A stretch of 37,985 bases of DNA, from IMG/VR virus record IMGVR_UViG_3300014614_000024, positions 1 to 37,985 of that record, one strand, 5' to 3'. This document shows, in pieces, positions 20,716 through 37,985 of this stretch (positions are counted from its first letter, which is position 1; the number at the start of each line of letters is the position of its first letter). The stretch is from a virus. Taxonomy: Duplodnaviria > Heunggongvirae > Uroviricota > Caudoviricetes. Under the pieces are notes generated by a model. That model was not told the origin of the DNA and did not search any database. It was given only the letters and a program-made list of their open reading frames with translations. The translations under genes and the position numbers were made by a program.

Positions 20716-22482
20716 ATGAACACCACACTGACACCCGCAGATCTCGATCCCCGTCGGCAGGCCATGCTGCTGTACTTTCAGGGATACCGCGTAGCCCGCA
20801 TTGCTGAAATGCTGGGCGAGAAAGTTGCAACCGTTCACAGCTGGAAAAAACGCGACAAGTGGGGTGACTATGGGCCGCTGGATCAGATGCAGCTCACCAC
20901 CGCCGCACGCTACTGCCAGCTCATTATGAAGGAGCACAAAGAAGGGAAAGATTTCAAAGAAATTGACCTGCTGGCGCGCCAGTCGGAGCGCCACGCGCGG
21001 ATCGGCAAGTTTAACAATGGCGGCAACGAAGCCGACTTAAACCCTAACGTCGCCAACCGCAACAAAGGCCCGCGCCGTCAGCCGGAAAAGAATGTTTTCA
21101 CCGATGAACAGATAGAGAAACTGGAAGAAATCTTCCATTCCTCCATGTTCAACTACCAGCGCCACTGGTGGGAAGCCGGAAAAACCAACCGCATCCGCAA
21201 CCTGCTGAAGTCACGCCAGATCGGCGCGACCTTTTACTTTGCCCGTGAAGCCCTGATTGACGCCCTGCTTACCGGACGTAACCAGATTTTCCTTTCTGCC
21301 AGTAAGGCACAGGCTCACGTCTTTAAGCAGTACATCATCGACTTCGCCAAAGAAGTCGAGGTGGAGCTGAAAGGCGATCCGATGGTGCTTCCTAACGGGG
21401 CCACGCTTTACTTCCTCGGCACCAATGCCCGCACGGCGCAGAGTTACCACGGCAACCTGTATCTGGATGAATATTTCTGGATACCGAAATTCCAGGAGTT
21501 GCGCAAAGTGGCTTCCGGTATGGCTATTCACAAGAAATGGCGACAAACCTATTTTTCCACGCCATCCAGCCTGACCCACAGTGCTTATCCGTTCTGGTCC
21601 GGTGCGCTGTTCAACCGTGGACGCAACAAAGCTGACAAGGTGGACATCGACCTGTCCCACAGCAATCTGGCCCCCGGCCTACTGTGCGCAGACGGGCAAT
21701 ACCGCCAGATAGTCACCGTGGAAGATGCGGTGCGCGGCGGCTGTAACCTGTTCGACCTCGACCAGCTGCGCATGGAGTACAGCCCGGACGAATACCAGAA
21801 CCTGCTGATGTGCGAGTTCGTGGACGATCTCGCGTCCGTGTTCCCGCTCAGCGAACTGCAGGCGTGCATGGTGGACAGCTGGGAAGTCTGGACCGACTTT
21901 CATGCACTGGCCCTGCGCCCGTTTGGCTGGCGCGAAGTGTGGATCGGTTATGACCCGGCAAAAGGTACGCAGAACGGCGACAGTGCCGGATGCGTGGTGG
22001 TGGCTCCGCCAGCCGTGCCGGGTGGTAAGTTCCGCATTCTTGAGCGTCACCAGTGGCGCGGGATGGACTTCCGCGCCCAGGCTGACGCCATCAAAAAACT
22101 GACCGAACAGTATAACGTGACCTATATCGGTATCGACTCGACCGGCGTCGGTCACGGGGTTTACGAGAACGTGAAAGCGTTTTTTCCTGCCGTCAGGGAG
22201 TTTGTCTATAACCCCAACGTTAAAAACGCCCTGGTACTCAAGGCCTACGACATTATCAGCCACCGCCGTCTGGAGTTTGACGCCGGGCACACCGACATTG
22301 CGCAGTCATTTATGGCAATCCGTCGCGCTACCACTGCCAGTGGCAACCGCCCGACCTATGAAGCCAGCCGCAGCGAAGAAGCCAGCCATGCCGATCTGGC
22401 CTGGGCAACAATGCACGCACTGTTTAACGAACCGCTGCAGGGCGAGTCCGCCAATACCAGCAATATTGTGGAGATTTTTTGA
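20716..22482 (+). CDS. P: terminase ATPase (large) subunit P
   Basis: 588 aa, P2 gpP-like; divergent from O as in P2. Confidence 0.9.
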   Translation: MNTTLTPADLDPRRQAMLLYFQGYRVARIAEMLGEKVATVHSWKKRDKWGDYGPLDQMQLTTAARYCQLIMKEHKEGKDFKEIDLLARQSERHARIGKFNNGGNEADLNPNVANRNKGPRRQPEKNVFTDEQIEKLEEIFHSSMFNYQRHWWEAGKTNRIRNLLKSRQIGATFYFAREALIDALLTGRNQIFLSASKAQAHVFKQYIIDFAKEVEVELKGDPMVLPNGATLYFLGTNARTAQSYHGNLYLDEYFWIPKFQELRKVASGMAIHKKWRQTYFSTPSSLTHSAYPFWSGALFNRGRNKADKVDIDLSHSNLAPGLLCADGQYRQIVTVEDAVRGGCNLFDLDQLRMEYSPDEYQNLLMCEFVDDLASVFPLSELQACMVDSWEVWTDFHALALRPFGWREVWIGYDPAKGTQNGDSAGCVVVAPPAVPGGKFRILERHQWRGMDFRAQADAIKKLTEQYNVTYIGIDSTGVGHGVYENVKAFFPAVREFVYNPNVKNALVLKAYDIISHRRLEFDAGHTDIAQSFMAIRRATTASGNRPTYEASRSEEASHADLAWATMHALFNEPLQGESANTSNIVEIF

Positions 22483-23519
22483 TGGGAAAGAGTAAGAAGA
22501 ACCGCGCTGCGTCGACGAAACAGATCCAGCATAAAAGCCAGACTTCAGCCGAAGCATTCAGCTTCGGTGATCCCGTTCCTGTTCTGGACCGCCGCGAACT
22601 GCTGGACTATGTGGAATGCGTACAGATGGATCGTTGGTACGAGCCGCCTGTGAGTTTCGACGGACTGGCGCGAACCTTCCGCGCCGCCGTGCATCACAGC
22701 TCACCGATTGCAGTGAAGTGCAACATTCTGACCAGCACCTACATCCCTCACCCGCTGCTCAGCCAGCAGGCTTTTTCGCGTTTTGTACAGGACTATCTGG
22801 TTTTTGGTAACGCCTACCTGGAGAAACGCACGAACCGCTTCGGTGAAGTTATCGCCCTTGAGCCTGCACTGGCAAAATACACCCGACGCGGGTTAGACCT
22901 TGATACCTACTGGTTTGTGCAATACGGCATGACTACGCAGCCGTATCAGTTCACGAAAGGCAACATTTTTCATCTGATGGAACCGGACATCAACCAGGAG
23001 ATCTACGGCCTGCCTGGTTATCTTTCTGCCATTCCGTCAGCTCTGCTCAACGAGTCCGCCACGCTGTTCCGCCGCAAGTATTACATTAACGGCAGTCATG
23101 CAGGCTTCATCATGTACATGACCGATGCAGCGCAGAACCAGGAGGATGTGAACAACCTCCGCAATGCGATGAAAAGCGCCAAAGGTCCTGGTAACTTCCG
23201 TAACCTGTTTATGTACTCGCCTAACGGTAAAAAGGACGGGCTTCAGATTATCCCGTTGTCAGAAGTGGCGGCGAAGGATGAGTTCCTGAATATCAAGAAC
23301 GTGAGCCGGGACGACATGATGGCGGCGCATCGTGTGCCGCCACAAATGATGGGGATAATGCCTAATAATGTCGGGGGGTTTGGGGATGTGGAGAAGGCCA
23401 GCCGTGTATTCGTCCGAAATGAGCTAATGCCACTACAAAAGCGATTACAGGAGATGAATGATTGGCTTGGCAAGGAGGCGATACAGTTTAATACCTACTC
23501 GCTAGATATAGTCCCATAA
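22479..23519 (+). CDS. Q: portal protein Q
   Basis: 346 aa, P2 gpQ-like; 4-bp overlap with P. Confidence 0.9.
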   Translation: MMGKSKKNRAASTKQIQHKSQTSAEAFSFGDPVPVLDRRELLDYVECVQMDRWYEPPVSFDGLARTFRAAVHHSSPIAVKCNILTSTYIPHPLLSQQAFSRFVQDYLVFGNAYLEKRTNRFGEVIALEPALAKYTRRGLDLDTYWFVQYGMTTQPYQFTKGNIFHLMEPDINQEIYGLPGYLSAIPSALLNESATLFRRKYYINGSHAGFIMYMTDAAQNQEDVNNLRNAMKSAKGPGNFRNLFMYSPNGKKDGLQIIPLSEVAAKDEFLNIKNVSRDDMMAAHRVPPQMMGIMPNNVGGFGDVEKASRVFVRNELMPLQKRLQEMNDWLGKEAIQFNTYSLDIVP

Positions 23520-23524
23520 TAAGA

Positions 23525-23546
23525 AAAGCCACCGTTTGGTGGCTTT
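23525..23546. terminator. bidirectional hairpin terminator between convergent Q and the HIRAN gene
   Basis: aaagccacc-gttt-ggtggcttt, flanked by A-run on the left and ttttctt on the right. Confidence 0.55.
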
Positions 23547-23553
23547 TCTTCAT

Positions 23554-24294
23554 TTACTCAATAGGTTCAAACTCATCCTGAGGAATCAGCGTCGATTGAC
23601 AGGCTTGGCTTAGTACTCCTGATAATTTACATAATAACCGATAGTTATGAGGAGCATCATCGCTAATCTTTTCGACCGTTAAAGTGATTGATTTTGGATC
23701 ATCCAATAACATCTTCTTGATATCATTACTTAAATACCTAGGGCAGTAACCAACGATTTCAGCTGGTTTATCTGCACGAACGACAACAGCATCCCCATCG
23801 TATTCATTTTGAAGATCCAAGCAAAGACGCAAAATTTGCCCCGGTTTCAATTCAGATACACGAGCATTAGCTAAGCTATTTAAGTAACCAAGTCCATGTA
23901 AGAAGAAAAAATGCTCAAAGTTACCATCAGAATCAACATCAATTTTTTTGAAAATCTGCAGCTGATCAGTGCTTCGTAAGCCTCCCGAGCGAGCAAGAAT
24001 ATCGATAGGATTTACCTTATCTTCTTCAAATCCAAGCCATTTAATGAAACTCGGATACTCTGGACGTCTCGGTGATAAAAGGCGATTTTTAAAAAGAGGA
24101 AACAATTCTTCCGAAACATAAGTTTCACGAACATCACTCATGCCGCTAAACTTTGTAAATTTAGTAGATTTAAGAGCACCTTTGGTATACCTGAAAACAT
24201 ACCCCGATTTGCGCTCTTGCAAGTTACCAACAACATGCCAGTCTCTGGTATCTGGTGCCTGCCATGCGACGTAAACGGAGTTTGTATTAGTCAT
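23554..24294 (-). CDS. HIRAN-domain protein (cargo; second gene of a two-gene operon)
   Basis: 246 aa; C-terminal segment LRLCLDLQNEYDGDAVVVRADKPAEIVGYCPRYLSNDIKKMLLD fits the HIRAN signature (N.yD..A..V...G.IGY.PR) as I recall it; ATG overlaps the upstream stop (ATGA); AT-rich. Confidence 0.6.
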   Translation of the reverse strand: MTNTNSVYVAWQAPDTRDWHVVGNLQERKSGYVFRYTKGALKSTKFTKFSGMSDVRETYVSEELFPLFKNRLLSPRRPEYPSFIKWLGFEEDKVNPIDILARSGGLRSTDQLQIFKKIDVDSDGNFEHFFFLHGLGYLNSLANARVSELKPGQILRLCLDLQNEYDGDAVVVRADKPAEIVGYCPRYLSNDIKKMLLDDPKSITLTVEKISDDAPHNYRLLCKLSGVLSQACQSTLIPQDEFEPIE

Positions 24295-25205
24295 TCTAGT
24301 AACCTTCTGCGATTTTCCATTACCATTAACGTTGCAAATCTACGTGCACTGTCGGATATACACGATGAAGGCACTTGGTTAAACACATCTGTAATGGAAT
24401 CTTCTGTTAAAACGCTCAACTTACCTAACCAATGGTCGCGAGCGGCAACTCTCCCTTCAACTGCATGTTGAAATGCTTCAACGGTCAGCAAGGGCTTTTT
24501 ATCAGTTTTTGCTTTGAATAGCTCAGAGCGAGCTTTTCTTACAAAACATGGGATTTGTCGATTTTTATCTTTAGTATTAAGCCGTTCGTTACGCTCATCA
24601 TCTAACATCTCCCTTCCTAAACTAGCGGCATGATCGTATGTTGGACACAAAAACTGCTCACCAGTTTCATTGTTAAGCATGATCGCCCAATTTTCATGAT
24701 GGCGATCTTGATTACTCACAAGTGCATCGAGCATCAAAAATCCACAAAATACATCTGCTGCATTTAGCCCGGTTAGATCATATACACTCGGAGGAGGCTT
24801 GATAGATTCCCTATCTAAACAACCCAATACCCTTGTGACAGTGTGTTCTCTGACCCTTACCGGCTTTTCCCCGGCTTGTAAAGGCCCTGGATAATCGAAT
24901 GTCGAACTGTGAAGCACTTCATTTCCCATTACCATCCGGAAACCAGATGGAATGATATTCTGAGTCACCACACCGAATCGACCATTGTATCGCGCCAAAT
25001 CATAGCTAGCATGTGGAATGTTAAGCAAATGACATAACTCAGCAGCACACTTTTCAGACCAATGCTCGCCAGTACCTGGCCTAGAGTACTTAAACAACTG
25101 CAAATTTACAGTGTCATCGGAGAAATAGAACCAAAACTTCTCTTTGGTTCCTAACTGTTCAAGATCGTTAGCTACGGGGCTAAGCTCTACCAATTGGTAT
25201 GGCAT
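24291..25205 (-). CDS. HipA-like Ser/Thr kinase core (short form, lacks the HipA N-terminal subdomains)
   Basis: 304 aa; motifs GTKEKF (compare HipA G.QEK), SNQDRHHENW (catalytic loop D.H..N) and LCPTYD (compare HipA LAPAYD); AGGGA upstream of the ATG at 25205. Confidence 0.65.
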   Translation of the reverse strand: MPYQLVELSPVANDLEQLGTKEKFWFYFSDDTVNLQLFKYSRPGTGEHWSEKCAAELCHLLNIPHASYDLARYNGRFGVVTQNIIPSGFRMVMGNEVLHSSTFDYPGPLQAGEKPVRVREHTVTRVLGCLDRESIKPPPSVYDLTGLNAADVFCGFLMLDALVSNQDRHHENWAIMLNNETGEQFLCPTYDHAASLGREMLDDERNERLNTKDKNRQIPCFVRKARSELFKAKTDKKPLLTVEAFQHAVEGRVAARDHWLGKLSVLTEDSITDVFNQVPSSCISDSARRFATLMVMENRRRLLE

Positions 25206-25350: not shown

Positions 25351-25380
25351 GCGCGCGCTCGTATCCCCGCCACGCCTGCC
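25351..25380 (-). other. putative cos site (cohesive-end region)
   Basis: minus-strand GGCGTGGCGGGGA (plus 25365-25376 ccccgccacgcc) matches the first 13 nt of the 186/P2 cohesive end as I recall it; lies in the only large non-coding gap between Q and A; flanked by repeated TCATGC motifs. Confidence 0.35.
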
Positions 25381-25867
25381 CGCTTTATGCAGTGGTTTTC
25401 ATGCACCTGCATGACATGAGTAAAAGCTCGCCAGTTCTAGCAGGTCTCTGCAAAAACGATCCTCAATCGATCATGCGATTTCATGCAGCATAGTCATGCA
25501 CAGCCAAGGGAAGCGTAAATCCGTATCTGAATGACCGCTGAAAAGCGAATCATACGGGTTTACAAAGATGAAAGTCCGCTGTGAGTGAAAAGCGGACATT
25601 AACTCCTTGCTTTTTGGCACTGAAACAGAGCGAAGCAGCATGTAAGCTGTTACGGATGCGCAGCGGTGACAACAGCAACTTCAATTAAGGAAATGCTCTT
25701 GGTTTTCGGGGAGACTTTTCGAGCGATATATGATAATGAAGACACTAAAAAACTGAACAGAAACGTCTAGCTCAATATGACTTCTGTTCAGGTATAAATG
25801 GTCTATTTATATATTCTCTCTTCAAATCCTTACTGAATACTCTCGAAGATGGCTAACGCCCCCTCTC

Positions 25868-26830
25868 TTAACCTTCATAGTTCATGCCGCCAAGATACGA
25901 AGGTATCATCATTAATGATTTAACCCTTTCTTTTTCTTTTTCGGTGAGATGACGACATGCAAATGGGTAAATATTGATCAAAAATGTCTTGAGTTCGTCA
26001 AATGCCTCATCTGAATATAGGGTCCCAGATCTTAACTCATTCATTATTGTCATGACCCATTTTATAAACACAGTTGGCATCATTACATCAGCTATATCTT
26101 CCCAGCCATCAATAAGGCCATTGTTTGTTTGTTTTCTAACATACTGCCGGAGTGCTTGGTCGCAGTTGCCTCGACACGTCCAAAAAATATGTTCATTATA
26201 CTCTGGTTCTTTTTCGTAGTCGGTGCGGATTCTTTGCCATATAGTGATAATTCCCTTGTCGTCTTGAGACAGAAGCTCTTTCTTGCAAACTTTGCATTTT
26301 AAGCTAGGTTCATCGGAAAATATTCTTGCGGGTTTGGGGTTTTCTGTTTTCCACTCAGATAACGACTTTGGGAAGTACCTTTCGGCAATTTCCAATCCTC
26401 TGGAAGAGTGTAAAAGTTCCCTCTCTATTTTCTCTTTATCGAAAACCTGAAATTCAATTCGTCCTTTCAACCCGTCAAGTATTCCAGACAGACCTGCACT
26501 AGCAAGAGTTGAATAGAACCCGATAAATCCTTGGCAGTTATTCGCTATTACTCGATCAGTAATATTTGCATCATCTCCTGGATTAACTGAATTTCCACTA
26601 TGAGCTTTATGCTTACAGCTTACCAACCAACGGATAATTGTTTCCCCGCCGACACCAGTCCTTTTTTCTTCGGCTATAATATCAACCCCACCGTCAGCCC
26701 CTCTATCTGGGTCAGATATAATTTTATATCCCAGAAAAGCTAAGAAGTCGCGAGAAAAAAGTTCAAATGTGTCTTGCAGCCCTGTTGCTTTATGAGCCTC
26801 TGGTATTTCTTTGAAGTCTAATACTGGCAT
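25868..26830 (-). CDS. Mrr-cat-like PD-(D/E)xK nuclease domain fused to a Cys-rich (CxxC...CxxxC) C-terminal domain; cargo
   Basis: 320 aa; N-terminal GADGGVDIIAEE...LVSCKHK resembles the restriction-endonuclease (Mrr catalytic) core; C-terminal CKVCKK...CRGNC; AT-rich; own divergent promoter region. Confidence 0.5.
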   Translation of the reverse strand: MPVLDFKEIPEAHKATGLQDTFELFSRDFLAFLGYKIISDPDRGADGGVDIIAEEKRTGVGGETIIRWLVSCKHKAHSGNSVNPGDDANITDRVIANNCQGFIGFYSTLASAGLSGILDGLKGRIEFQVFDKEKIERELLHSSRGLEIAERYFPKSLSEWKTENPKPARIFSDEPSLKCKVCKKELLSQDDKGIITIWQRIRTDYEKEPEYNEHIFWTCRGNCDQALRQYVRKQTNNGLIDGWEDIADVMMPTVFIKWVMTIMNELRSGTLYSDEAFDELKTFLINIYPFACRHLTEKEKERVKSLMMIPSYLGGMNYEG

Positions 26831-27112
26831 TTTTATGGGGTCCTTAAGTTGTTAATGCTTATTGGGTGGAAAGAACCGTATTTAAACACGGAGTTTCTGC
26901 CTCTGTAAATTTAATATGTAGAACACTCATCACTTTTTATAACTGACAATAGGATATTTAGACGTCTGTTTTTGGCACAAAGCAGACAAAAAACTGAAGG
27001 CCCACTGTGAACGAGAAACGGACTATGATACTAACAAGAGAGCATCACTGTTAATATTTGAACAATTAATGCTCAGCTATTTATCTATTTTTACAATTAG
27101 AAAGGACTTGTA

Positions 27113-27523
27113 ATGGTTACGGTTGATGAATTAAAGATGAAATATCCGGACGCGAATGCCTGGCAAATGGGCGACAGCCCTGAACTGGCTAACGAGCTTG
27201 CAGCGCTTATCAAAAAAGGAATTAAAACGGCCTCCTGCGGCTCTTATGCCTCTTACCAGAAGGAAGAGTTTGCCCCAAGGATTGGGAGCTATAACATCAT
27301 CCTTAACGGCCAAGATGTACCGGTATACGTGACCCGGCTGGTGTCGATGCGACTGGTGCGTTTTTGTGATGTTACTGCCGAGTTCGCTCGCAAGGAAGGT
27401 GAAGGCGATTTGAGTCTTGAATATTGGCAGAGAGAGCATCAACGATTTTTTACATGTGAAGGTTACTTTTCTGATGATATGGAGCTGATTATGGAAGAGT
27501 TTGAAGTTGTTGATGTTTTGTAA
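27113..27523 (+). CDS. ASCH (PUA-like) domain protein; cargo
   Basis: 136 aa; resembles the YqfB/ASCH family by eye (IKKGIKTAS..., ...AEFARKEGEGD...); AAAGGA 6 nt upstream of the ATG. Confidence 0.55.
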   Translation: MVTVDELKMKYPDANAWQMGDSPELANELAALIKKGIKTASCGSYASYQKEEFAPRIGSYNIILNGQDVPVYVTRLVSMRLVRFCDVTAEFARKEGEGDLSLEYWQREHQRFFTCEGYFSDDMELIMEEFEVVDVL

Positions 27524-28299: not shown

Positions 28300-30672
28300 T
28301 TAATACAGGTTCCGCCACTTATCATCTTCCTGCAAACGCTGGTTCCGATAGAAGATACGCAGGCCTGCTCCTGACGGAATACTGCCGCCGCGAAGGAGTA
28401 AATCGACCTCTTTCTCGCTACCATCAAATCCTCTGGACTTCAGCTCATAGACGAGCTGCAGTCGCTGATGGTCTGTAATTCGCTGTTTGTAGTCTTTACG
28501 CCGTTTCGGTTTAACCAGGCGTAACCTTGCAGCCAGTTCCCGGCGCTCTTTTTTGCTCATACTGTGCAGGTAATCGTGCAACTCCTTGTCATCCATGCGG
28601 GTAATGTCCGTTCTGATGTCCCCATCAGCTGATTTATCTTTCTCCTGTTGGTTCAAATTTTCAGCAAGGGGACAGTTATTGCCACGAGTCCAAGGGGCGC
28701 AAGCGCCCTGGTCGGCTGCCGCCTCCTGAACGTCAACGGCCTTACGAACCATTTTCCACTTCACGGCATGAGTGCAGATCTTGCCCTCTGCAATAGGTGA
28801 CCAGATGCCATAAATACGAATGCCGTGATCGCCATAGGCGGTCGGCTCTTCGTTGATTTCATAAGCAGTTCTGATGAGGTGATATTTGCGGGGAACCAGT
28901 ACGCCACCCTGCTTCATGATGTAGGTGGCAAAACAACCAGCATCAGCAGCAGCCAGAATGGCATCAAGGCGCGGGTTATCCAGTACCGGCGCACCTGCTT
29001 TTTTGTCCCCCTGTTGCCTTGCCGCCTGACCAGCCAGCAATCGCAGTTCACGGTAAGCCTGACGCCCCGGAATGCCAAAGAAGCGGAATTGCTGAACACG
29101 ATGCAGAGACGCCCAGGCATTAACGTATTCAGCATTATCACGCAGGGATTTCCCCGTTTCCTTGCTGATCTCGCCAGCCAGACCACGCCCGTCAATGTTC
29201 TTACTGATGTATTTCGCGATGTAGCTTGTTGGCGTACCTTTGCGCGGGTTAATCAACTCAGACTTAAAGCGCGGCCCAGTGTTATTGCCCAGCTCCTCGC
29301 GGTCTTCACGGATGGCAAACTTACGCAGTAATGCAGTGATGGTGCGGCGGTCTTTTTTGCGCATAAAACACAACAGGTGCCAGTGAACTGTACCGTCATG
29401 ATGCGGCTCAGCCACCCGCACGCCATACCACCGCAATCCGGCTTTGTGCATCGCCTTACGAAATGCAGCAAACATGCCGACCAGATAATCACTGCTTTGT
29501 CTTACCGTCGCATTTGTCCAGGTTGGGTTGGGCCTGCCGTTATTTAGCGTGGAATGGAAACGTGACGGACAGGTGATGGTGTAGAAAACGGCGCAGTCAC
29601 CGCGCATTTCCGCGATAAGCTCCAGACCTTTAACACAGGCCATCATCTCATTGCGGCGATGCGCAGGGTTGCTGCTGCTGGCGTTTACCACATCCTCCAT
29701 GTCCAGCGTGTCGCCGTCTTCGTTCACCAGTTCATGAGAACGGAAAAACTCCAGCGACTTACGGCGCTGCTCACGTTTATGCATCACGGCTTCATAGCTG
29801 ACATAGGGAGATGCTTTTTTGCTGACCAGGCAAACAGCACGCAACTGCTCTTCCCGCCATTCGCAACGCATCTTCCATAATTTCCGGTACCACCAGTCGG
29901 CGCACAACATACGCGCCAGCGAACCCGGAATGAGTTCATAGGGCACGGGTTTACGGCGGTTTCTTTTCCGGCGGAGTTGCTCAAACGCAGGCGGTATGAC
30001 ATCCAGTCGCAGGGTTTCTGCTGCCACCTTTTCCCATGTCTTGCGGATTTCTTCTGGCTTAACGTCATCGGTGGCATACAAATCGCCACAAGCTGCATCA
30101 AGGCACATGCTCATATGCGCAGCAACAAGGGTGGACAGGCGTTTCACCTGATCCTGACTCATTTCAGGCAGAATCAGCAGGCCGTCCAGCCCTTCATGGC
30201 TTGCCATAAAGCGAAAAGAAGTGGATAGCTGACTGTCGCGCACATGCTCCAGCCGTTCCAGACATGGCTTAATCGTCTCACGCAAATAGCGGGAATAAGC
30301 CTTTGGCCTGCCAAGGCTGCTGAAGTATTCAATACGTTGCATCAGCGGCTTGCTGATATGGGAAGGCTGGGCATTGACGTCCGCCAGAATGACCATATCT
30401 GGATTAAAACGCTGCTGCTCATGCGCCAGCTTTGCCCGACTAATGAGCTTATCCTGCTCCATTTCGCGCTGTACAGGATCACGGGATTCATTAAAGAAAT
30501 AACGCTCCCAGACCTGATCACTCAGTACCTCGCGGCGCAGGTGTTCCTGCTCGTTATCGGCAGCGTACAGAGCGATCAGGTTTGAAAGCGCAGAAACTGA
30601 AGATTGCTCTTCTGTCTCTACGTAAGGATTGATTGCTTTTTTCTCAGCATTCCAGGAATAGCTGTAGTTCAT
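28300..30672 (-). CDS. A: replication initiation endonuclease A (rolling-circle HUH Rep)
   Basis: 790 aa; HUH motif HWHLL and two-tyrosine motif YIAKYISK; same position as P2/186 gene A. Confidence 0.85.
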
Positions 30673-31502
30673 TACGCAATCTCCAGTTCGAGCTGTGAAG
30701 GCTGCAAACCATTCGACAGCCAGTCAGAAACTGAAGGTGGGCGAACAGCTTCAATTGCACCTTTTAAAATTGCGCAACGGTTTTTCAGAATGACAGCTTT
30801 CAGCTCCTTTTCCGTCAGATTGCGCGAATACTCAGCCTCCTGAATAGCCCGCGTAAGCTCAGGATATTTGCTATTAAATTTGGGGACATTGCAGGCAAGA
30901 TTTGTACTGTCGGCAGTCGCCAGTGGGTAATTTCCCAACACACGACCGTCAAGCATGCGCAAACCATGAACAGCTGTTTTGAAATTGTGTCGGCAATAAA
31001 TTGCTTCAAAAGCGTCCTGCATACGACGATGCCAGTGCGCAGTTCTAATAGCCGCATATTCACCAGACGATCCAAAGCAGACACGAGGCCATTCACGACA
31101 TAGCTCGATAAGCCGATCGATTGACTCGTGCAGATGCCAGACGGGAGTTGCCTTCCCGTAGAACATTTTCGGAACTTCGTTTATCAGGGCATCATTGTCA
31201 CGTTCACCTCCGTCCACAACATCAGGAATGACAAAAAAAGCGACCTTAGGATGGTGGTAATAGTTCAGGAGCCATTTATAAAAATCATTCCAGTTAATTT
31301 TTAGCCCACGCACCCATGCAGAAAATGCGCCGTTATCAATGCCAACGACCTGGGCGTGCTGAATGGACGCCGCAATCTGATCTGGTCGTACATAGGAGAC
31401 GAAAGCACCAGCTCCGCTCACCGCAATACGATGAACGTCGCCAGCACTTCCCCAGACAGGCGTCCCATGGAAATGATGAATTCCGTGGTGCATTTCTTTC
31501 AC
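30672..31502 (-). CDS. hypothetical protein translationally coupled to dam
   Basis: 276 aa; GTG start overlaps the dam stop (GTGA); His-rich N-terminus; no family recognised. Confidence 0.5.
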
Positions 31503-32353
31503 ACTTGCACCCCGAAAATAACAGTAGAGTCACGTCCCCTACTAAAATCGGCACTAAACCAATTAGCAGATTTAGTGGCAATCATCTCTGTTGCAAATTT
31601 TCCCTCCCCCGCTGCAACGCCGATGCTGCGTTTCGCCCTGATGTAGTGGTGAGTGAAATTACGATAAAGAGACCGGGTCAAAGACGTGTCACTGTTAGAA
31701 ACAATGACCGGATGTCCTTCAGATGCTCGATGTTCAAGAACGGATGCCAGGTGATACTGGTCATCTTCAGTGAAACCATCAGTGTGATAGCCGGAAAACG
31801 TACCGTCATACGGCGGATCGCAATACACCACATCCCCCGCCTTCAACATCGCCAGCGTTTCATCAAAGCTGGCGCAGATAAACGTTGCTCGCTGGGCCTT
31901 TTCTGCAAATGCGCGAATTTCTTTTTCAGGGAAATACGGATTTTTATAATTACCGTAGGGAATGTTGAAATGCCCGCTCTTGTTATAGCGACATAAACCA
32001 CGGTAACCGTGACGATTGAGATACAGGAAATATACCGCTCTCATGAAATCAGTAATTTCAGTTGAGTAATTAAACTCCTGCCTTATGTTGTAATAAGCCA
32101 CCTCCCTGTTTGCGATCTCAAATAAAACTCTGGCGCGAGATATAAACGATTCACAATCAGCGGCAACCTTTTTATAGAGGTTGATTAAATCAGGATTAAT
32201 ATCCGCAACCAGATAGCTGGGATAATCCGTCTCCATCATCACAGCACAGGAACCCGCGAAAGGTTCAACCAGTCGCGGGCCAGCAGGAAGATGTTTTTTC
32301 AGTTCGGACATTATGGCAGTTTTATTTCCCGCCCATTTCAGGATGGTGCTCAT
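31499..32353 (-). CDS. dam: DNA adenine methyltransferase (Dam-like)
   Basis: start at internal ATG 32353; [23 protein letters not shown] and DPPY motifs closely parallel E. coli Dam; ATGA overlap with the upstream gene. Confidence 0.88.
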
Positions 32354-32577
32354 ACAGCACCTCCGTTGTAATGTTTGCCTTTCAGCTCTGCGATTTCCTG
32401 ACAGGTAATGCAAAGTTGCACACCCGGAATGGCACGGCGGCGTGCTGGCGGAATTGGCGCTTCACACTCAACGCAAAGCACGCGGGACACTCCCGGCGTT
32501 TTGGCACGGGCAGCACGGATATGACGCTGGCGTTCTTCTTCAACTCGCTGCTGTACGAGATCCATTGCATCAGCCAT
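32350..32577 (-). CDS. TraR/DksA-family C4 zinc-finger protein
   Basis: 75 aa; CVEC-N17-CITC. Confidence 0.7.
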   Translation of the reverse strand: MADAMDLVQQRVEEERQRHIRAARAKTPGVSRVLCVECEAPIPPARRRAIPGVQLCITCQEIAELKGKHYNGGAV

Positions 32578-34249: not shown

Positions 34250-35184
34250 CTAATAAAATCACATTTCGCCATATTGAAGATCATCTGAAAGCCATGGTCA
34301 TGCAGAATCGAGGAGGGCAAAAAGTCATTGAGAGAATACTCATGGCCTATGGTTTCAAATCACGCCAAGCATTCTGTAACCACCTTGGTATTTCACAAAG
34401 TACAATGGCTAACAGATATGCACGCGATACCTTCCCTGCTGATTGGGTTGTTATATGTTCAATGGAAACTGGCGCATCAATCGAATGGTTAGCATTTGGT
34501 TTAGATGCTGAAGAAGGAGTGCCAGCTCCTTCGCCAGAACGGCATGCTGAAAAACAGTCTGCAGATGAATTTTGCAATGAAGTTCACACCCCCACGATAA
34601 AGTTCGATAATGAAAACCACATGGATTTCACTCGAGGGGGTAAAGCAGCAATAGAGCGAATTGTTAAGGCTTACGGTTACAAAACGCGCCAAGCCTTAGC
34701 CGATCACCTTGGTATCTCAAAAAGCACATTAGCTACACGATACATGCGAGACATTTTTCCGGCAGACTGGATCATCCAATGCTGTTTAGAAACAGGAGTG
34801 TCTCTCGAGTGGTTATCTTTTGGTAAGGGGCATTCCAATCAAACAAAGCTAAGTGGGTTGCTTACATTAGACTGCTATGATCTACGTGACGGCAAACTTA
34901 CTGATCAAAGAGAATTAATCGTTTCGAGCGAAATTTTACCTCAAAATTTAAAACATCCCTATATAGTTAATTCCGCAAATGATTCATATATCATTAGCAA
35001 AGAGGAGTATCTTAGCGATGGTCTATGGTTAGTATCTATTAACGGAGAATTTACTTTTAGAGACATATTTAAACTTCCAAACAATCGCATCCGCGTTGAA
35101 AACACAAAATATAGCTTTGAATGCGATAAAGAAGATTTGGAATTTAATAATAAAGTTAAAGGAATAATTAGAAAAAGGGTTTAA
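34243..35184 (+). CDS. cI: CI-like immunity repressor (186 type) with duplicated N-terminal DNA-binding domain
   Basis: 313 aa; residues ~24-90 and ~132-198 are paralogous (GGQKVIERILMAYGFKSRQAF.NHLGISQSTMANRYARDTFPADW... versus GGKAAIERIVKAYGYKTRQALADHLGISKSTLATRYMRDIFPADW...), both like the 186 CI N-terminal domain; C-terminus (SDGLWLV...FKLP...FEC) like the 186 CI oligomerisation domain. Confidence 0.7.
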   Translation: MSTNKITFRHIEDHLKAMVMQNRGGQKVIERILMAYGFKSRQAFCNHLGISQSTMANRYARDTFPADWVVICSMETGASIEWLAFGLDAEEGVPAPSPERHAEKQSADEFCNEVHTPTIKFDNENHMDFTRGGKAAIERIVKAYGYKTRQALADHLGISKSTLATRYMRDIFPADWIIQCCLETGVSLEWLSFGKGHSNQTKLSGLLTLDCYDLRDGKLTDQRELIVSSEILPQNLKHPYIVNSANDSYIISKEEYLSDGLWLVSINGEFTFRDIFKLPNNRIRVENTKYSFECDKEDLEFNNKVKGIIRKRV

Positions 35185-35186
35185 CA

Positions 35187-36236
35187 ATGAGCTTTACGAA
35201 AACTATTGAATTTGCAAACTATACCTTAAATTTTGGAGAGGACAAAGTTCTCTTAGATGCTTTTGATTGCATTGTTTTTCCTTCATTTTTCGCACAAAAA
35301 TACGTTAGAAAATTTAAAGATACAGAATATTTCTTTACTGACACAAAAATTATTACGTTAGATACTACAGATTCAGATTTTATTGGTCCTATAGTTCCAA
35401 CAATTGCATTGTGTGGCCGCATTATAAAAAAGACCATATTTAAACGAGATCAAATATTTCAAGATGGTCAATTAATTCGAGATCACAGGACGCTAGAAAG
35501 TCACCCCAGCTCTATTTTTATTCTTATGCTTAATGAGCACAGATTAATGCTTTGCAAAGAGGTTTCTGGAGCCCCTACCCTAGAAGAATTTGAAAATACT
35601 AGCAAGTATTGCCTTGCACAGCGATATAATTCTTTTGTGGATTACGAAGTAAAAAAAAATAAAAGAATTAGAAAGAAAAAATCATACATTGATCGACTGT
35701 ATAAAAAAGATATTTATCGTAAACTAGGAGCCCCCAAATTACGGGTTACCCCCTTAACAGACCCAAGATCATTGAGCAATTTTGTTGAACTCTTTTCTGT
35801 TGTTAATAGATTATCAATTGAGTTATTGCCAACAAATAGTGAAAATATATCTCTTGATGGCTTCTGGAGGAAAATTGAACAAGAAAAAGAAGAACTTAAT
35901 AGTAGTAAAGCTCAATTAGTATACACAAATAAAAATGAAGATGGTTTAAATTCTGAGGCCGTCATTCAAAAAACAACAAGTGCAACCCGAATGGCCAACT
36001 CTAAAGTAATTATAAGTGGTAAAGATGAACACGGAGCAAGGCTATCAGGGAATAATGATAGTTTTACTCTAAAAGCATCAAGGCCACAACTTAGTTCTGA
36101 TTTGGAAAGAGCTGCTCAAGAGGCGTATTCTGCATTCACAGAATTAAAGGATGCAGGAAATATTATTATTCCAGAACGTGAAGATTATACTAAAATTTTT
36201 TCCAAGTTAACATCAATAATTTCTAGGTGGCTATAG
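35187..36236 (+). CDS. hypothetical soluble protein (cargo; first gene of a Rex-like pair)
   Basis: 349 aa, very AT-rich and Lys/Asn-rich; starts 3 nt after the cI stop; no family recognised. Confidence 0.5.
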   Translation: MSFTKTIEFANYTLNFGEDKVLLDAFDCIVFPSFFAQKYVRKFKDTEYFFTDTKIITLDTTDSDFIGPIVPTIALCGRIIKKTIFKRDQIFQDGQLIRDHRTLESHPSSIFILMLNEHRLMLCKEVSGAPTLEEFENTSKYCLAQRYNSFVDYEVKKNKRIRKKKSYIDRLYKKDIYRKLGAPKLRVTPLTDPRSLSNFVELFSVVNRLSIELLPTNSENISLDGFWRKIEQEKEELNSSKAQLVYTNKNEDGLNSEAVIQKTTSATRMANSKVIISGKDEHGARLSGNNDSFTLKASRPQLSSDLERAAQEAYSAFTELKDAGNIIIPEREDYTKIFSKLTSIISRWL

Positions 36237-36237
36237 T

Positions 36238-36843
36238 ATGAAATATACATTCAACCCAGAAGATCTGACCAAAGAGCGATCTTTGCATGATGTTTACAAA
36301 TTAACTAAAAAAATAAAGGTCAATTCATTTGACTTTTATTTCACATTATTATTAGTGATATTATTATCTATTAATGCTTTTTGTCTATCTTCATCACCAG
36401 AGTTAATTTCATCTATTAGACAATGGACACCTTTAGTATTCGGATTCACTACAACAACATTAGGTTTTTTAATTACTGGATTTACAATATTTGCAACCAT
36501 AAATAAACCTGAACTTTTCCTTTCATTAATGGAGTATAAGCATCCATTATACGGGATAAGTTACTTAAAATATGTTTATGGCGTATTTATGAGAGTATTT
36601 ATATATTTCATATTTTGGTCTGTTATCTATCTTTTAGTCCTTCTTTTCGGGCAAGAAAATGGATTGGCTACAAAATTACTCAGAGCCTTAATGTTTTCTC
36701 ATTGCACTAAAGTTGTTGGAGTTCAAATACTATATATACTCGTAGGAAGCAGTGCAGTGTTCCTTGTATTAACTTTAAAAACTTTCCTGTTCAATATTTA
36801 TGCTATGTTAATGCAATCTCTACGCTGGGAAGTAGAAAGATAA
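36238..36843 (+). CDS. hypothetical polytopic membrane protein (cargo; second gene of a Rex-like pair)
   Basis: 201 aa with four long hydrophobic segments; ATG 2 nt after the upstream stop; AGGTGG upstream. Confidence 0.55.
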   Translation: MKYTFNPEDLTKERSLHDVYKLTKKIKVNSFDFYFTLLLVILLSINAFCLSSSPELISSIRQWTPLVFGFTTTTLGFLITGFTIFATINKPELFLSLMEYKHPLYGISYLKYVYGVFMRVFIYFIFWSVIYLLVLLFGQENGLATKLLRALMFSHCTKVVGVQILYILVGSSAVFLVLTLKTFLFNIYAMLMQSLRWEVER

Positions 36844-36932
36844 AATTAACCTCAATGTATGAATCTCAATTCATATACATTGACACTGGTTATACATACA
36901 GTAAAAATGCTCTCCACTGGAGGGCATTTTTT

Positions 36933-37985
36933 ATGGCAGTACGAAAACTCATCACAGGAAAATGGCTATGCGAATGTTACCCCGCGGGACGTAGTGGACG
37001 TCGTGTGCGTAAACAATTCGCCACCAAAGGTGAAGCTCTGGCTTTTGAGCGTCACACGATGGAAGAAACCGAAGCAAAGCCCTGGCTGGGTGAATCAGTG
37101 GATCGTCGAACACTGAAAGACGTGGTTGAGCTATGGTTCAAACTACATGGTAAATCTCTGACAGCTGGGCAGCATGTCTATGACAAATTGCTGTTGATAG
37201 TTGACGCTCTGGGCAATCCCCTTGCAACCGATCTCACCTCTAAAATGTTTGCCCACTATCGAGATAAACGCCTGACAGGAGAGATCTACTTCAGCGAAAA
37301 ATGGAAGAAAGGAGCAAGCCCGGTCACCATTAACCTGGAGCAAAGCTATCTTAGTAGTGTTTTTAGCGAACTATCCCGCCTGGGCGAATGGTCGTATCCG
37401 AACCCACTGGAGAACATGCGAAAATTCACCATCGCTGAAAAAGAGATGGCATGGCTTACCCATGAGCAGATTGTTGAATTACTGGCTGATTGCAAACGTC
37501 AGGACCCAATTCTGGCACTGGTAGTTAAGATATGCTTAAGCACAGGCGCACGCTGGCGAGAAGCCGTAAATCTTACTCGTTCACAGGTGACCAAATACCG
37601 AATTACCTTTGTAAGAACGAAGGGGAAGAAAAACAGAAGCATCCCTATCAGTAAAGAGCTTTACGAAGAGATCATGGCGCTTGATGGGTTCAATTTCTTC
37701 ACAGACTGCTATTTTCAATTTTTATCCGTGATGGAAAAAACGTCTATCGTGCTCCCTCGCGGTCAACTCACACACGTTCTGCGCCATACGTTTGCGGCGC
37801 ACTTCATGATGTCGGGTGGAAACATCCTGGCCTTACAAAAAATTCTCGGACATCACGATATAAAAATGACGATGCGTTACGCACATCTGGCACCGGATCA
37901 TCTGGAAACGGCGCTCCGTTTCAATCCTCTGGCAACGCTGCCAAGTGGCGACAAAGTGGCGGCAGCGGTTGGCATTACCCCGTAA
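36933..37985 (+). CDS. int: tyrosine integrase (P2/186 type)
   Basis: 350 aa from ATG 36933 (MAVRKLITGKW..., compare P2 Int MAIKKLDDGRY...); C-terminal catalytic region with HxxR and Y (VLRHTFAAH...MTMRYAHL); stop codon is the last 3 nt of the window. Confidence 0.85.
   Translation: MAVRKLITGKWLCECYPAGRSGRRVRKQFATKGEALAFERHTMEETEAKPWLGESVDRRTLKDVVELWFKLHGKSLTAGQHVYDKLLLIVDALGNPLATDLTSKMFAHYRDKRLTGEIYFSEKWKKGASPVTINLEQSYLSSVFSELSRLGEWSYPNPLENMRKFTIAEKEMAWLTHEQIVELLADCKRQDPILALVVKICLSTGARWREAVNLTRSQVTKYRITFVRTKGKKNRSIPISKELYEEIMALDGFNFFTDCYFQFLSVMEKTSIVLPRGQLTHVLRHTFAAHFMMSGGNILALQKILGHHDIKMTMRYAHLAPDHLETALRFNPLATLPSGDKVAAAVGITP

What the first reader, a model, noticed from the sequence alone, without database searches (positions are those of the whole stretch)
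25868..26830. Stand-alone Mrr-cat-like nuclease with a Cys-rich C-terminal domain in the accessory island
A single AT-rich gene with its own promoter region encodes an N-terminal restriction-endonuclease-like core (GADGGVDII...E...VSCKHK) fused to a C-terminal region with CxxC...CxxxC. It sits on the A-proximal side of the putative cos site, where P2 carries tin/old-type defence cargo. A lone nuclease here is a candidate single-gene defence effector, perhaps modification-dependent. The phage's own Dam methylation (31499-32353) might matter for self-protection.
Basis: partly seen in the sequence, partly recalled or inferred. Interest (0 to 1): 0.6.

Follow-up and report, generated by a model that had tools for sequence, protein, structure and literature searches.

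The report
Mobile single-gene phage-borne nuclease cassette
A P2-like prophage carries a self-contained 1.4-kb cassette encoding a DNA-cutting enzyme fused to a previously undescribed zinc-binding domain; it is most likely an untested one-gene anti-phage defence whose cutting module is reused across bacteria with dozens of different partner domains.

The parts
25566..26985 (-). Whole mobile cassette: CDS plus about 155 bp upstream and about 300 bp downstream DNA that always travel together
   Evidence: blastn finds the same block in a STEC island (L002, window 25566-26979, 98.8%) and in two viral contigs (L093, 25573-26985, 92.9%; L094, 25571-26981, 88.1%). Homology breaks at the same ends each time.
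25868..26830 (-). CDS, 320 aa plus stop codon
   Evidence: The product is identical to cluster P0001. NCBI annotates the E. coli copy as WP_016248371.1 'restriction endonuclease'.
26336..26830 (-). N-terminal nuclease module, aa 1-165 (PD-(D/E)xK, Mrr/MspJI-like)
26609..26695 (-). Predicted active-site segment, D46-G-G-V-D50 through S71-C72-K73-H74
   Evidence: D46, D50, E55, S71, K73 and H74 are invariant in 79 family members and 44 alternative-architecture relatives. The segment lies on strands beta2 and beta3 of the model. Equating it with the D...QxK motif of Mrr/MspJI is my inference.
25871..26335 (-). C-terminal domain, aa 166-320: Cys4 zinc-ribbon-like hairpins followed by a helical bundle
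26162..26296 (-). Putative zinc site: C179-x2-C182 ... C219-x3-C223
   Evidence: All four Cys are invariant in the 26-sequence domain alignment and at least 90% conserved in 79 sequences. Metal binding is inferred.
25747..25791 (-). Terminator-like hairpin on the coding strand (10-bp stem 25782-25791/25753-25762) followed by U6 (25747-25752), about 77 nt after the stop codon
   Evidence: Inverted repeat found. RNA fold -18.2 kcal/mol, z = -3.0 against shuffles. Function is inferred.
25566..25597 (-). Second hairpin (GTCCGC...GCGGAC) plus T-rich tail at the 3' edge of the cassette
   Evidence: Read directly from the sequence. It is conserved in L002, L093 and L094 up to the breakpoint.
26831..26985 (-). 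Co-inherited 5' region, with an AAGGA Shine-Dalgarno-like motif about 10 nt before the ATG; the promoter is presumably here or just upstream
   Evidence: The only scan hit (TTAACA-18-TATCAT, 27054-27025) lies outside the cassette and is not above chance.

Best explanation
The gene is a self-contained, single-polypeptide anti-phage (inter-viral competition) nuclease carried as a moron cassette by the prophage. The N-terminal 165 residues are a DNA-cleaving Mrr/MspJI-type PD-(D/E)xK effector with one active site per chain. That module is kept nearly constant across bacteria and reused with many different partner domains. The C-terminal 155 residues, a Cys4 zinc-binding element plus a helical bundle, form the family's private specificity or regulatory domain. 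I propose that this domain holds the enzyme latent in the lysogen. On recognising an infection cue (a phage protein, or a phage DNA structure or state), it would drive dimerisation or oligomerisation of the nuclease modules. Double-strand cleavage of the incoming DNA, and possibly of all DNA in the cell, would follow. Shown here: the fold, the conserved active-site and Cys4 residues, the cassette autonomy, the hotspot and defence-island contexts, and the modular reuse. Inferred: DNase activity, zinc binding, gating by the C-terminal domain, oligomerisation, and the defence phenotype itself.
For: **Nuclease fold and an intact, invariant active-site constellation**
- Pfam Mrr_cat scores above its cutoff.
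- The model has pLDDT 94.6 and pTM 0.81.
- D46, D50, E55, S71, K73 and H74 are invariant in 123 sequences.

**Effector-plus-swappable-sensor design**
- 44 of the top 150 cluster representatives share only the N-module, at 50-67% identity.
- Their tails fall into 27 mutually unrelated clusters.
- The tails include NACHT, nSTAND and NB-ARC NTPases, TPR repeats, and one PD-T4-6-like (Ser/Thr kinase system) tail.

**Autonomy**
- A 1.41-kb block with fixed ends recurs in four different contexts.
- No neighbour family is present in more than 7 of 91 loci, and no Pfam domain dominates among 140 flanking proteins.
- A Vibrio cholerae homolog (65% identity) sits in an array of cassette-like genes.

**Defence context**
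- It occupies the P2 gpA-portal hotspot beside PDC-M03, or beside retron Ec67 in another strain.
- It occupies the same slot in an Aeromonas P2-like phage.
- It occupies the Z/fun slot in Providencia and in P2-EC67.
- It lies inside the morphogenesis operon of another P2-like phage.
- It is inserted between hsdS and a large ResIII-type gene in type I R-M operons.
- Flanking genes include SIR2, HerA, DUF2971, AAA_21 and Fic domains.

**Distribution**
- About 239 of 185,579 species representatives carry it, across more than 12 phyla, with 60-90% identity between distant taxa.

**Decay**
- A frameshifted, decaying copy is found in a degraded STEC island.
Against: - No experiment exists for any family member that I could find.
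- PADLOC 2.0 has no model for it. The best hit is PDC-S02 at E = 0.004 over a 36-residue motif.
- The canonical acidic residue of the (D/E)xK triad is Ser71, so catalysis must rely on other invariant acids (E23, D46, E55). Activity is not proven.
- Nothing shows that the C-terminal domain senses anything. It could instead be a DNA-binding or oligomerisation domain.
- I could not model multimers or inspect inter-domain contacts.
- Many flanking genes in the 91 loci are housekeeping genes, so defence-island enrichment is qualitative, not tested statistically.
Confidence: 0.5

Rival explanations
1. It is a type IV, modification-dependent restriction enzyme. The C-terminal Cys4/helical domain would read a modified base (for example hmC, glucosyl-hmC or a methylated base) and direct the Mrr/MspJI-like nuclease to cut modified phage DNA. 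No methylase partner would be needed.
For: - The closest solved structures to the nuclease domain are the modification-dependent enzymes AspBHI and MspJI.
- Pfam places the domain in Mrr_cat.
- No cognate methyltransferase is conserved nearby, as expected for type IV enzymes.
- A constant nuclease combined with varied reader domains is also the known design of type IV enzymes (established knowledge, from memory).
Against: - The similarity to MspJI and AspBHI covers only the catalytic domain (136-141 aligned residues). Their SRA-like reader has no counterpart here.
- The C-terminal domain matches no known modified-base reader fold and no PDB structure at all.
- The domain is net acidic on average, -3.2, which is atypical for a DNA-binding module.
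- The same N-module sits on STAND/NACHT NTPases and TPR proteins, which are protein-sensing architectures.
Confidence: 0.25
2. It is not an immune gene. It could be a selfish or addiction-type nuclease, a DNA-repair or recombination nuclease (NucS- or Hjc-like), or a lysogenic-conversion function that merely rides in variable phage slots.
For: - The GenBank record of P2-EC67 calls the 38%-identical ORF1 a 'putative lysogenic conversion protein'.
- Rousset et al. note that P2 hotspots also carry non-defence cargo.
- Many neighbours in the 91 loci are housekeeping genes.
Against: - The sparse, patchy, cross-phylum distribution with high identity is unlike a housekeeping repair enzyme.
- The gene recurs in defence hotspots, inside R-M operons and in cassette arrays.
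- The N-module is shared with STAND NTPases.
- No antitoxin-like partner is conserved.
Confidence: 0.12
3. It works as a two-gene system with the divergently transcribed ASCH gene (27113-27523), or depends on the prophage Dam methylase (31499-32413) for self-protection.
For: - In E. coli complete genomes the ASCH gene occurs in only 4 of 5426 genomes and is always next to this gene.
- ASCH belongs to the PUA-like superfamily, which includes modified-nucleic-acid readers (established knowledge, from memory).
- The D12 methylase is present in the same prophage.
Against: - ASCH lies outside the cassette, whose boundary is at 26985.
- ASCH is absent next to the homologs in Aeromonas, Providencia, Acinetobacter, Vibrio and Methylovulum and in the 91 surveyed loci.
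- The four E. coli co-occurrences are 99.5-99.9% identical blocks, which indicates recent common descent.
- The methylase is 4.7 kb away, is part of the phage early operon, and is not linked to the gene elsewhere.
Confidence: 0.05

Closest known systems
MspJI / AspBHI family catalytic domain (type IV modification-dependent REases; PDB 4f0p, 4oc8)
   Different: There is no detectable sequence similarity. Domain order is reversed: the nuclease is N-terminal here. The SRA-like reader is absent and replaced by an unrelated Cys4/helical domain.
Avs / STAND (NLR-like) antiviral ATPases with an N-terminal Mrr-like nuclease effector (e.g. Avs4, PDB 8dgf)
   Different: This protein has no NTPase domain and is only 320 aa. 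Any oligomerisation would have to be nucleotide-independent. The NACHT relatives are not matched by PADLOC models at E<=1e-5.
Shedu (SduA): single-protein immune nuclease with a common enzymatic core and diverse sensor domains
   Same: The design principle is the same: one PD-(D/E)xK core reused with many different regulatory or sensor domains in a single polypeptide (paper 10.1101/2023.08.10.552793, abstract seen).
P2 tin/old and other cargo of the gpA-gpQ and Z/fun hotspots (Rousset et al. 2022, PMC9122126; Vassallo et al. 2022, PMC9519451)
   Same: The genomic slots are the same. This exact arrangement (ASCH + DinI + hyp + Mrr_cat + hyp + HIRAN, WP_016248371) is listed in Rousset Table S5A. 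Vassallo et al. validated other single-protein putative DNases from P2 hotspots, including a beta-propeller with an N-terminal Mrr-family nuclease.
   Different: The proteins are unrelated. This arrangement was not among the curated or tested systems, and the PADLOC models built from those screens do not match it.
Bacteriophage P2-EC67 Z-region ORF1 (AJ512685, CAD54909)
   Same: It is a true homolog (38% identity over 92% of the protein) carried as a lone gene in the other P2 variable region.
   Different: It is divergent. Its record annotates 91-113-bp inverted repeats flanking the gene, which I did not find around the window copy. It has no assigned function beyond 'putative lysogenic conversion protein'.

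Membership tests
PD-(D/E)xK nuclease superfamily / Pfam Mrr_cat (PF04471) | Profile match at or above Pfam's gathering score | tested here: met
   27.1 bits against a cutoff of 21, aa 20-82. 39 of 44 relatives with other tails also match.
PD-(D/E)xK nuclease superfamily / Pfam Mrr_cat (PF04471) | alpha-beta-beta-beta-alpha-beta restriction-endonuclease-like core fold | tested here: met
PD-(D/E)xK nuclease superfamily / Pfam Mrr_cat (PF04471) | Catalytic D ... (D/E/Q)xK constellation | tested here: inconclusive
   D50 and K73 are invariant, but the middle position is an invariant Ser71. Other invariant or nearly invariant acids (E23, D46, E55) could substitute. The residue equivalences are inferred, not structurally superposed.
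PD-(D/E)xK nuclease superfamily / Pfam Mrr_cat (PF04471) | Metal-dependent nuclease activity | not testable with these tools
   Needs biochemistry.
Type IV modification-dependent restriction enzymes (MspJI/AspBHI, Mrr) | A modified-base reader domain (SRA-like, PUA/EVE-like or winged-helix) fused to the nuclease | tested here: not met
Type IV modification-dependent restriction enzymes (MspJI/AspBHI, Mrr) | No cognate methyltransferase | tested here: met
   No conserved neighbour in 91 loci, and no methylase among the recurrent flanking domains. This is consistent with type IV but not specific to it.
Type IV modification-dependent restriction enzymes (MspJI/AspBHI, Mrr) | Cleavage depends on DNA modification | not testable with these tools
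   Needs nuclease assays on modified and unmodified DNA.
Avs / STAND NLR-like antiviral NTPases | Central STAND (NACHT / NB-ARC-type) NTPase domain | tested here: not met
   Pfam finds only Mrr_cat in the 320-aa protein. The NTPase is present only in the paralogous architectures P0208 and P0220.
Avs / STAND NLR-like antiviral NTPases | N-terminal nuclease effector | tested here: met
Systems catalogued in PADLOC-DB 2.0 (including PDC-S02) | Significant full-length HMM match | tested here: not met
   The best hit is PDC-S02 at E = 0.004, aa 30-66 only. None of the 79 family members has a meaningful hit.
Classical type II restriction-modification system | Adjacent cognate DNA methyltransferase | tested here: not met
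   No adjacent methylase in the window: the D12 MTase is 4.7 kb away in the early operon. None is conserved in 91 loci.
Autonomous phage moron / single-gene cassette | A discrete unit with its own flanking signals, found in different contexts with the same ends | tested here: met
   The 1.41-kb block has identical breakpoints in four contexts. Terminator-like hairpins lie downstream. The promoter was not demonstrated.

The most novel reading that the evidence does not exclude
The 165-residue N-module defines a large, unrecognised superfamily of NTPase-independent 'mini pattern-recognition' nucleases. In it, dozens of unrelated small C-terminal domains would each act as the direct sensor for a different phage cue, with the STAND-fused versions being one branch. 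At least 28 tail types, counting this protein's own, occur among 45 sampled proteins. The Cys4/helical domain of this gene would then be a new sensor fold whose ligand, a phage protein or a DNA state, switches on a generic DNase by induced oligomerisation.
Probability: 0.3. Interest if true: 0.7.

Novelty: new variant of a known kind. Interest (0 to 1): 0.5.

Why it matters
If the cassette protects against phages, it would add a compact (about 1 kb) one-gene defence that is absent from PADLOC 2.0. It would also give the generic annotation 'restriction endonuclease' on more than 1000 proteins a concrete meaning. The more interesting point is the architecture. A nearly invariant nuclease module is joined to at least 28 unrelated tails, from 100-residue domains to full STAND NTPases. 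That offers a natural tail-swap series for asking how sensor domains gate a common effector, and how small sensors relate to NLR-like machines. The C-terminal Cys4 domain is a confidently predicted fold with no solved relative, so its ligand would be new biology. The cassette's fixed ends at several insertion sites in P2-like phages also make it a clean example of how single defence genes shuttle between hotspots.

Tried and rejected
- **PDB sequence searches.** Profiles of the whole protein, the N-module alone and the C-domain alone returned nothing meaningful.
- **PHROGs and NCBIfam.** No hit, or a negligible one.
- **PADLOC.** Scans of the protein, of 79 family members and of 44 relatives gave only a weak partial PDC-S02 hit and one PD-T4-6-like tail. 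A follow-up scan of ten candidates did not identify which member carries that tail.
- **C-domain on other effectors.** A profile search of the 5.8-billion-protein set found only fragments or truncated copies of the same family.
- **AlphaFold database fold search.** The library was unavailable.
- **First structure model.** The 26-sequence alignment gave a poor C-terminal model (pLDDT 73.7). It was replaced by the 79-sequence model.
- **ASCH as a partner.** Rejected on cassette boundaries and on its absence in other genera.
- **Dam as a partner.** Rejected for lack of any linkage.
- **Flanking inverted repeats like those in P2-EC67.** Not found; the only inverted repeat is the terminator-like hairpin.
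- **P2 cos sequence, recalled from memory.** No match, so the cos position is unconfirmed.
- **Promoter scan.** Not above the shuffle expectation.
- **Rfam.** Only a sub-threshold hit near the portal gene's 3' end.
- **Literature.** Rousset 2022, Vassallo 2022, Darracq 2024, the 2026 NAR P2/P4 paper and DefensePredictor 2026 contain no tested homolog. An accession search returned no papers.

Full report
**1. The observation**

The quoted motifs are all present. They are GADGGVDII (aa 44-52), VSCKHK (aa 70-75), C179-KV-C182 and C219-RGN-C223.

The gene lies in an AT-rich block. GC is 0.39-0.41 across 25501-27000, against 0.52-0.61 for the prophage structural genes.

It is not a chance ORF. A search of 5.8 billion proteins returned more than 1200 homologs with a uniform length of about 319 aa, at 60-90% identity across distant taxa. 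An exhaustive HMMER scan of 1.84 billion cluster representatives found 1050 representatives.

**2. Surroundings in the window**

The window is a P2/186-like prophage. These features were confirmed:
- gpA replication endonuclease (28300-30672, PF05840), terminase and portal (20716-23519), a D12-class adenine methylase (31499-32413) and a CI-type repressor.
- Between gpA and the portal gene lie a 62-aa ORF, a DinI-like gene, an ASCH gene on the plus strand (27113-27523), the gene in question, and a two-gene HipA-like kinase plus HIRAN pair (24291-25205 and 23554-24294).
- The kinase/HIRAN pair matches PADLOC candidate system PDC-M03A/B at E = 1e-121 and 3e-93.

This is the gpA-gpQ hotspot where P2 carries tin and old (Rousset et al. 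2022, PMC9122126). I could not locate cos itself, because the P2 cos sequence I recalled from memory has no match.

**3. The protein**

Pfam Mrr_cat matches above its gathering score (27.1 bits against 21), but only over aa 20-82. PHROGs gives nothing. NCBIfam gives a negligible hit. PADLOC gives only a weak partial hit to PDC-S02.

A first AlphaFold model from 26 close homologs was good only for the N-terminal half. A second model from 79 diverse family members is confident throughout, with mean pLDDT 94.6 and pTM 0.81.

Fold comparison against the PDB gave these results:
- Foldseek ranks MspJI and AspBHI first, with E from 9e-6 to 2e-4.

Residues 1-165 are therefore a PD-(D/E)xK nuclease of the Mrr/MspJI type.

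Across 79 family members and 44 relatives with other tails, D46, D50, E55, S71, K73 and H74 are invariant, and E23 is invariant or nearly so. I read this as a D50...S71-x-K73 variant of the D...QxK motif of Mrr/MspJI. That motif is recalled from memory and the equivalence is inferred, so the missing acid must come from another invariant residue.

Residues 166-320 contain two beta-hairpins bearing four conserved cysteines, followed by a helical bundle. This half has:
- no Pfam match;
- no PDB sequence match even with a profile;
- no occurrence on any other N-terminal domain, since a profile search found it only in fragments or truncated copies of this same family.

The domain is net acidic on average, -3.2 over 79 sequences.

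**4. A constant module with swappable tails**

Among the top 150 cluster representatives, 44 share only the N-terminal ~165 residues (50-67% identity) and continue into something else, in proteins of 260-1045 aa.

Their tails fall into 27 mutually unrelated BLAST clusters, none of which includes the tail of this protein. Pfam recognises only a few of them: NACHT, nSTAND_NTPase5, NB-ARC and TPR. One tail matches the PADLOC model of PD-T4-6, which Vassallo et al. list as a Ser/Thr-kinase system.

The nuclease half thus behaves as a conserved effector module. It is combined with many alternative partner domains, including the NTPase cores of NLR-like antiviral sensors.

**5. The gene is an autonomous cassette**

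Nucleotide comparison shows one block with the same breakpoints in several contexts:
- a degraded island of STEC strains (window 25566-26979, 98.8% identity);
- viral contig L093 (25573-26985, 92.9%);
- viral contig L094 (25571-26981, 88.1%).

The block holds the CDS, 155 bp upstream, and about 300 bp downstream. The downstream part contains two hairpin-plus-U-tract elements on the coding strand.

The ASCH gene starts 128 bp beyond the boundary. It occurs in only 4 of 5426 complete E. coli genomes, always beside this gene, but on 99.5-99.9% identical DNA. It is absent next to homologs in other genera.

In E. coli strain 2547 the same right-hand block is joined to retron Ec67 instead of PDC-M03, with the breakpoint at 25351. 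The neighbouring systems are therefore independent modules.

**6. Where the family lives**

- Aeromonas P2-like prophage: the same portal-gpA slot.
- Providencia P2-like prophage, and P2-EC67 'Z-region ORF1' (38% identity): the Z/fun slot after the tail-fibre genes.
- Viral contig L093: between baseplate and tail-completion genes of a P2-like phage.
- Acinetobacter baumannii: at a prophage end, and next to a DUF4062 protein.
- Vibrio cholerae chromosome 2: among DUF645, DUF3709 and acetyltransferase genes typical of superintegron cassettes.
- Four loci: embedded in type I R-M operons. In L035 the order is hsdM, hsdS, a 253-aa ORF, this gene, then a 1089-aa gene. ResIII and HSDR_N domains appear among the flanking proteins of the surveyed loci.

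In the species-representative genome set the signature peptide marks about 239 of 185,579 species, spread over more than 12 phyla.

I clustered 788 neighbouring ORFs from 91 loci. No family is present in more than 7 loci, and that one is a recombinase. A Pfam census of 140 immediately flanking proteins has no dominant domain. The top entries are ResIII 4, DEAD 3 and DUF2971 3. SIR2_2, HerA, Fic, AAA_21 and Phage_integrase each occur twice, as do several housekeeping families. No methyltransferase partner is conserved.

**7. Mechanism**

The evidence best fits a single-polypeptide immune nuclease. It would consist of a generic DNase effector with one active site per chain, like the FokI or Avs4 nuclease domains, so double-strand cutting would need at least two chains. 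A family-specific C-terminal domain would control it.

I propose that the Cys4/helical domain keeps the enzyme latent and triggers assembly and cleavage on recognising an infection cue. That the same module sits on STAND NTPases, which are protein-sensing architectures, supports the effector reading.

The frameshifted STEC allele lacks the helical subdomain: it has a 4-bp deletion at CDS 697-700 and a W217S change. It persists in about 19 complete genomes. That weakly suggests the C-terminal domain is needed for activity and is not merely an inhibitor.

Every step beyond fold, conservation and context is inference.

The main rival is a type IV modification-dependent enzyme. In its favour are the closest structural neighbours and the missing methylase. 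Against it, the C-terminal domain resembles no known modified-base reader and is acidic. I give it about half the weight of the sensor-gated model.

A non-defence role and a two-gene system with ASCH or Dam are less likely (sections 5 and 6).

**8. Comparison with what is known, and novelty**

The protein meets the Mrr_cat / PD-(D/E)xK criteria that can be tested by sequence and fold. It fails a defining feature of each more specific family:
- MspJI-type enzymes: no reader domain.
- Avs: no NTPase domain.
- Classical R-M: no cognate methylase.
- Any PADLOC 2.0 system: no model match.

The exact arrangement appears as a raw line in Rousset et al. [quoted passage not shown] It was not among the curated or tested systems.

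I found no test of a homolog in Vassallo 2022, Darracq 2024, the 2026 NAR P2/P4 study or DefensePredictor 2026. An accession search returned no papers.

I rate it a new variant of a known kind: single-protein PD-(D/E)xK defence nucleases with accessory domains. Interest is moderate (0.5). Specialists already expect nucleases in P2 hotspots. However, the constant-module / many-tails architecture and the orphan, confidently folded Cys4 domain are worth an experiment.

Noticed in passing
window 23554-25205 (minus strand; two overlapping genes, 24291-25205 and 23554-24294): A HipA-like kinase (304 aa) and a HIRAN-domain protein (246 aa) match PADLOC candidate system PDC-M03A/B at E = 1e-121 and 3e-93. 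They correspond to PHROGs 8728 and 8026. Rousset et al. list a 'HIRAN-kinase' pair in their supplementary file 7. In E. coli strain 2547 this pair is replaced by retron Ec67 at the same position.
   Followed up: partly
window 27113-27523 (plus strand): An ASCH-domain gene (Pfam E = 2e-21) is transcribed divergently from the nuclease gene. It is present in only 4 of 5426 complete E. coli genomes, always beside the nuclease cassette but outside its boundaries. Its function is unknown.
   Followed up: partly
window 35001-37985: A very AT-rich block (GC 0.30-0.34) lies next to the CI-type repressor gene. It has three plus-strand ORFs (35187-36236, 36238-36843, 36855-37985+) with no Pfam or PADLOC match. 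This could be further foreign cargo or flanking island DNA.
   Followed up: partly
L002 6001-7376 (E. coli 2013C-3181 and about 19 other, mostly STEC, genomes): The same cassette lies in a degraded island next to IS66 and a broken integrase. It carries a 4-bp deletion at CDS 697-700 and a W217S change, giving a 244-aa truncated product that NCBI still annotates as 'restriction endonuclease'.
   Followed up: yes
window 25611-25620 and 26969-26978: The 10-nt direct repeat TTTTTGGCAC sits about 45 nt and about 8 nt inside the two cassette ends. It is partly conserved in L002, L093 and L094. One such 10-mer pair in 1.4 kb is roughly what chance predicts, but its position at both ends is curious. 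The cassette's insertion mechanism is unknown.
   Followed up: no
L035 370-9274 and L095 1196-9323: A family member (about 51-57% identity) is inserted between hsdS and a ~1100-aa downstream gene of type I R-M operons. This is the kind of slot known to hold passenger defence genes such as prrC (from memory).
   Followed up: partly
L007 10034-11667 (Vibrio cholerae chromosome 2): Two genes downstream of the Vibrio homolog lies a DUF4365 protein followed by a 378-aa ORF. This is reminiscent of the DUF4365-containing 'Divona' integron-cassette defence described by Darracq et al. 2024. I did not check it further.
   Followed up: no
window 30672-31502 (minus strand): A 276-aa ORF between gpA and the Dam-type methylase has no Pfam or PADLOC match.
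   Followed up: no
window 23490-23568: There is a sub-threshold Rfam hit (BSnc120, 32 bits against a gathering score of 114) in the 35-nt gap and gene ends between the portal and HIRAN genes, where cos would be expected. It is probably chance.
   Followed up: no
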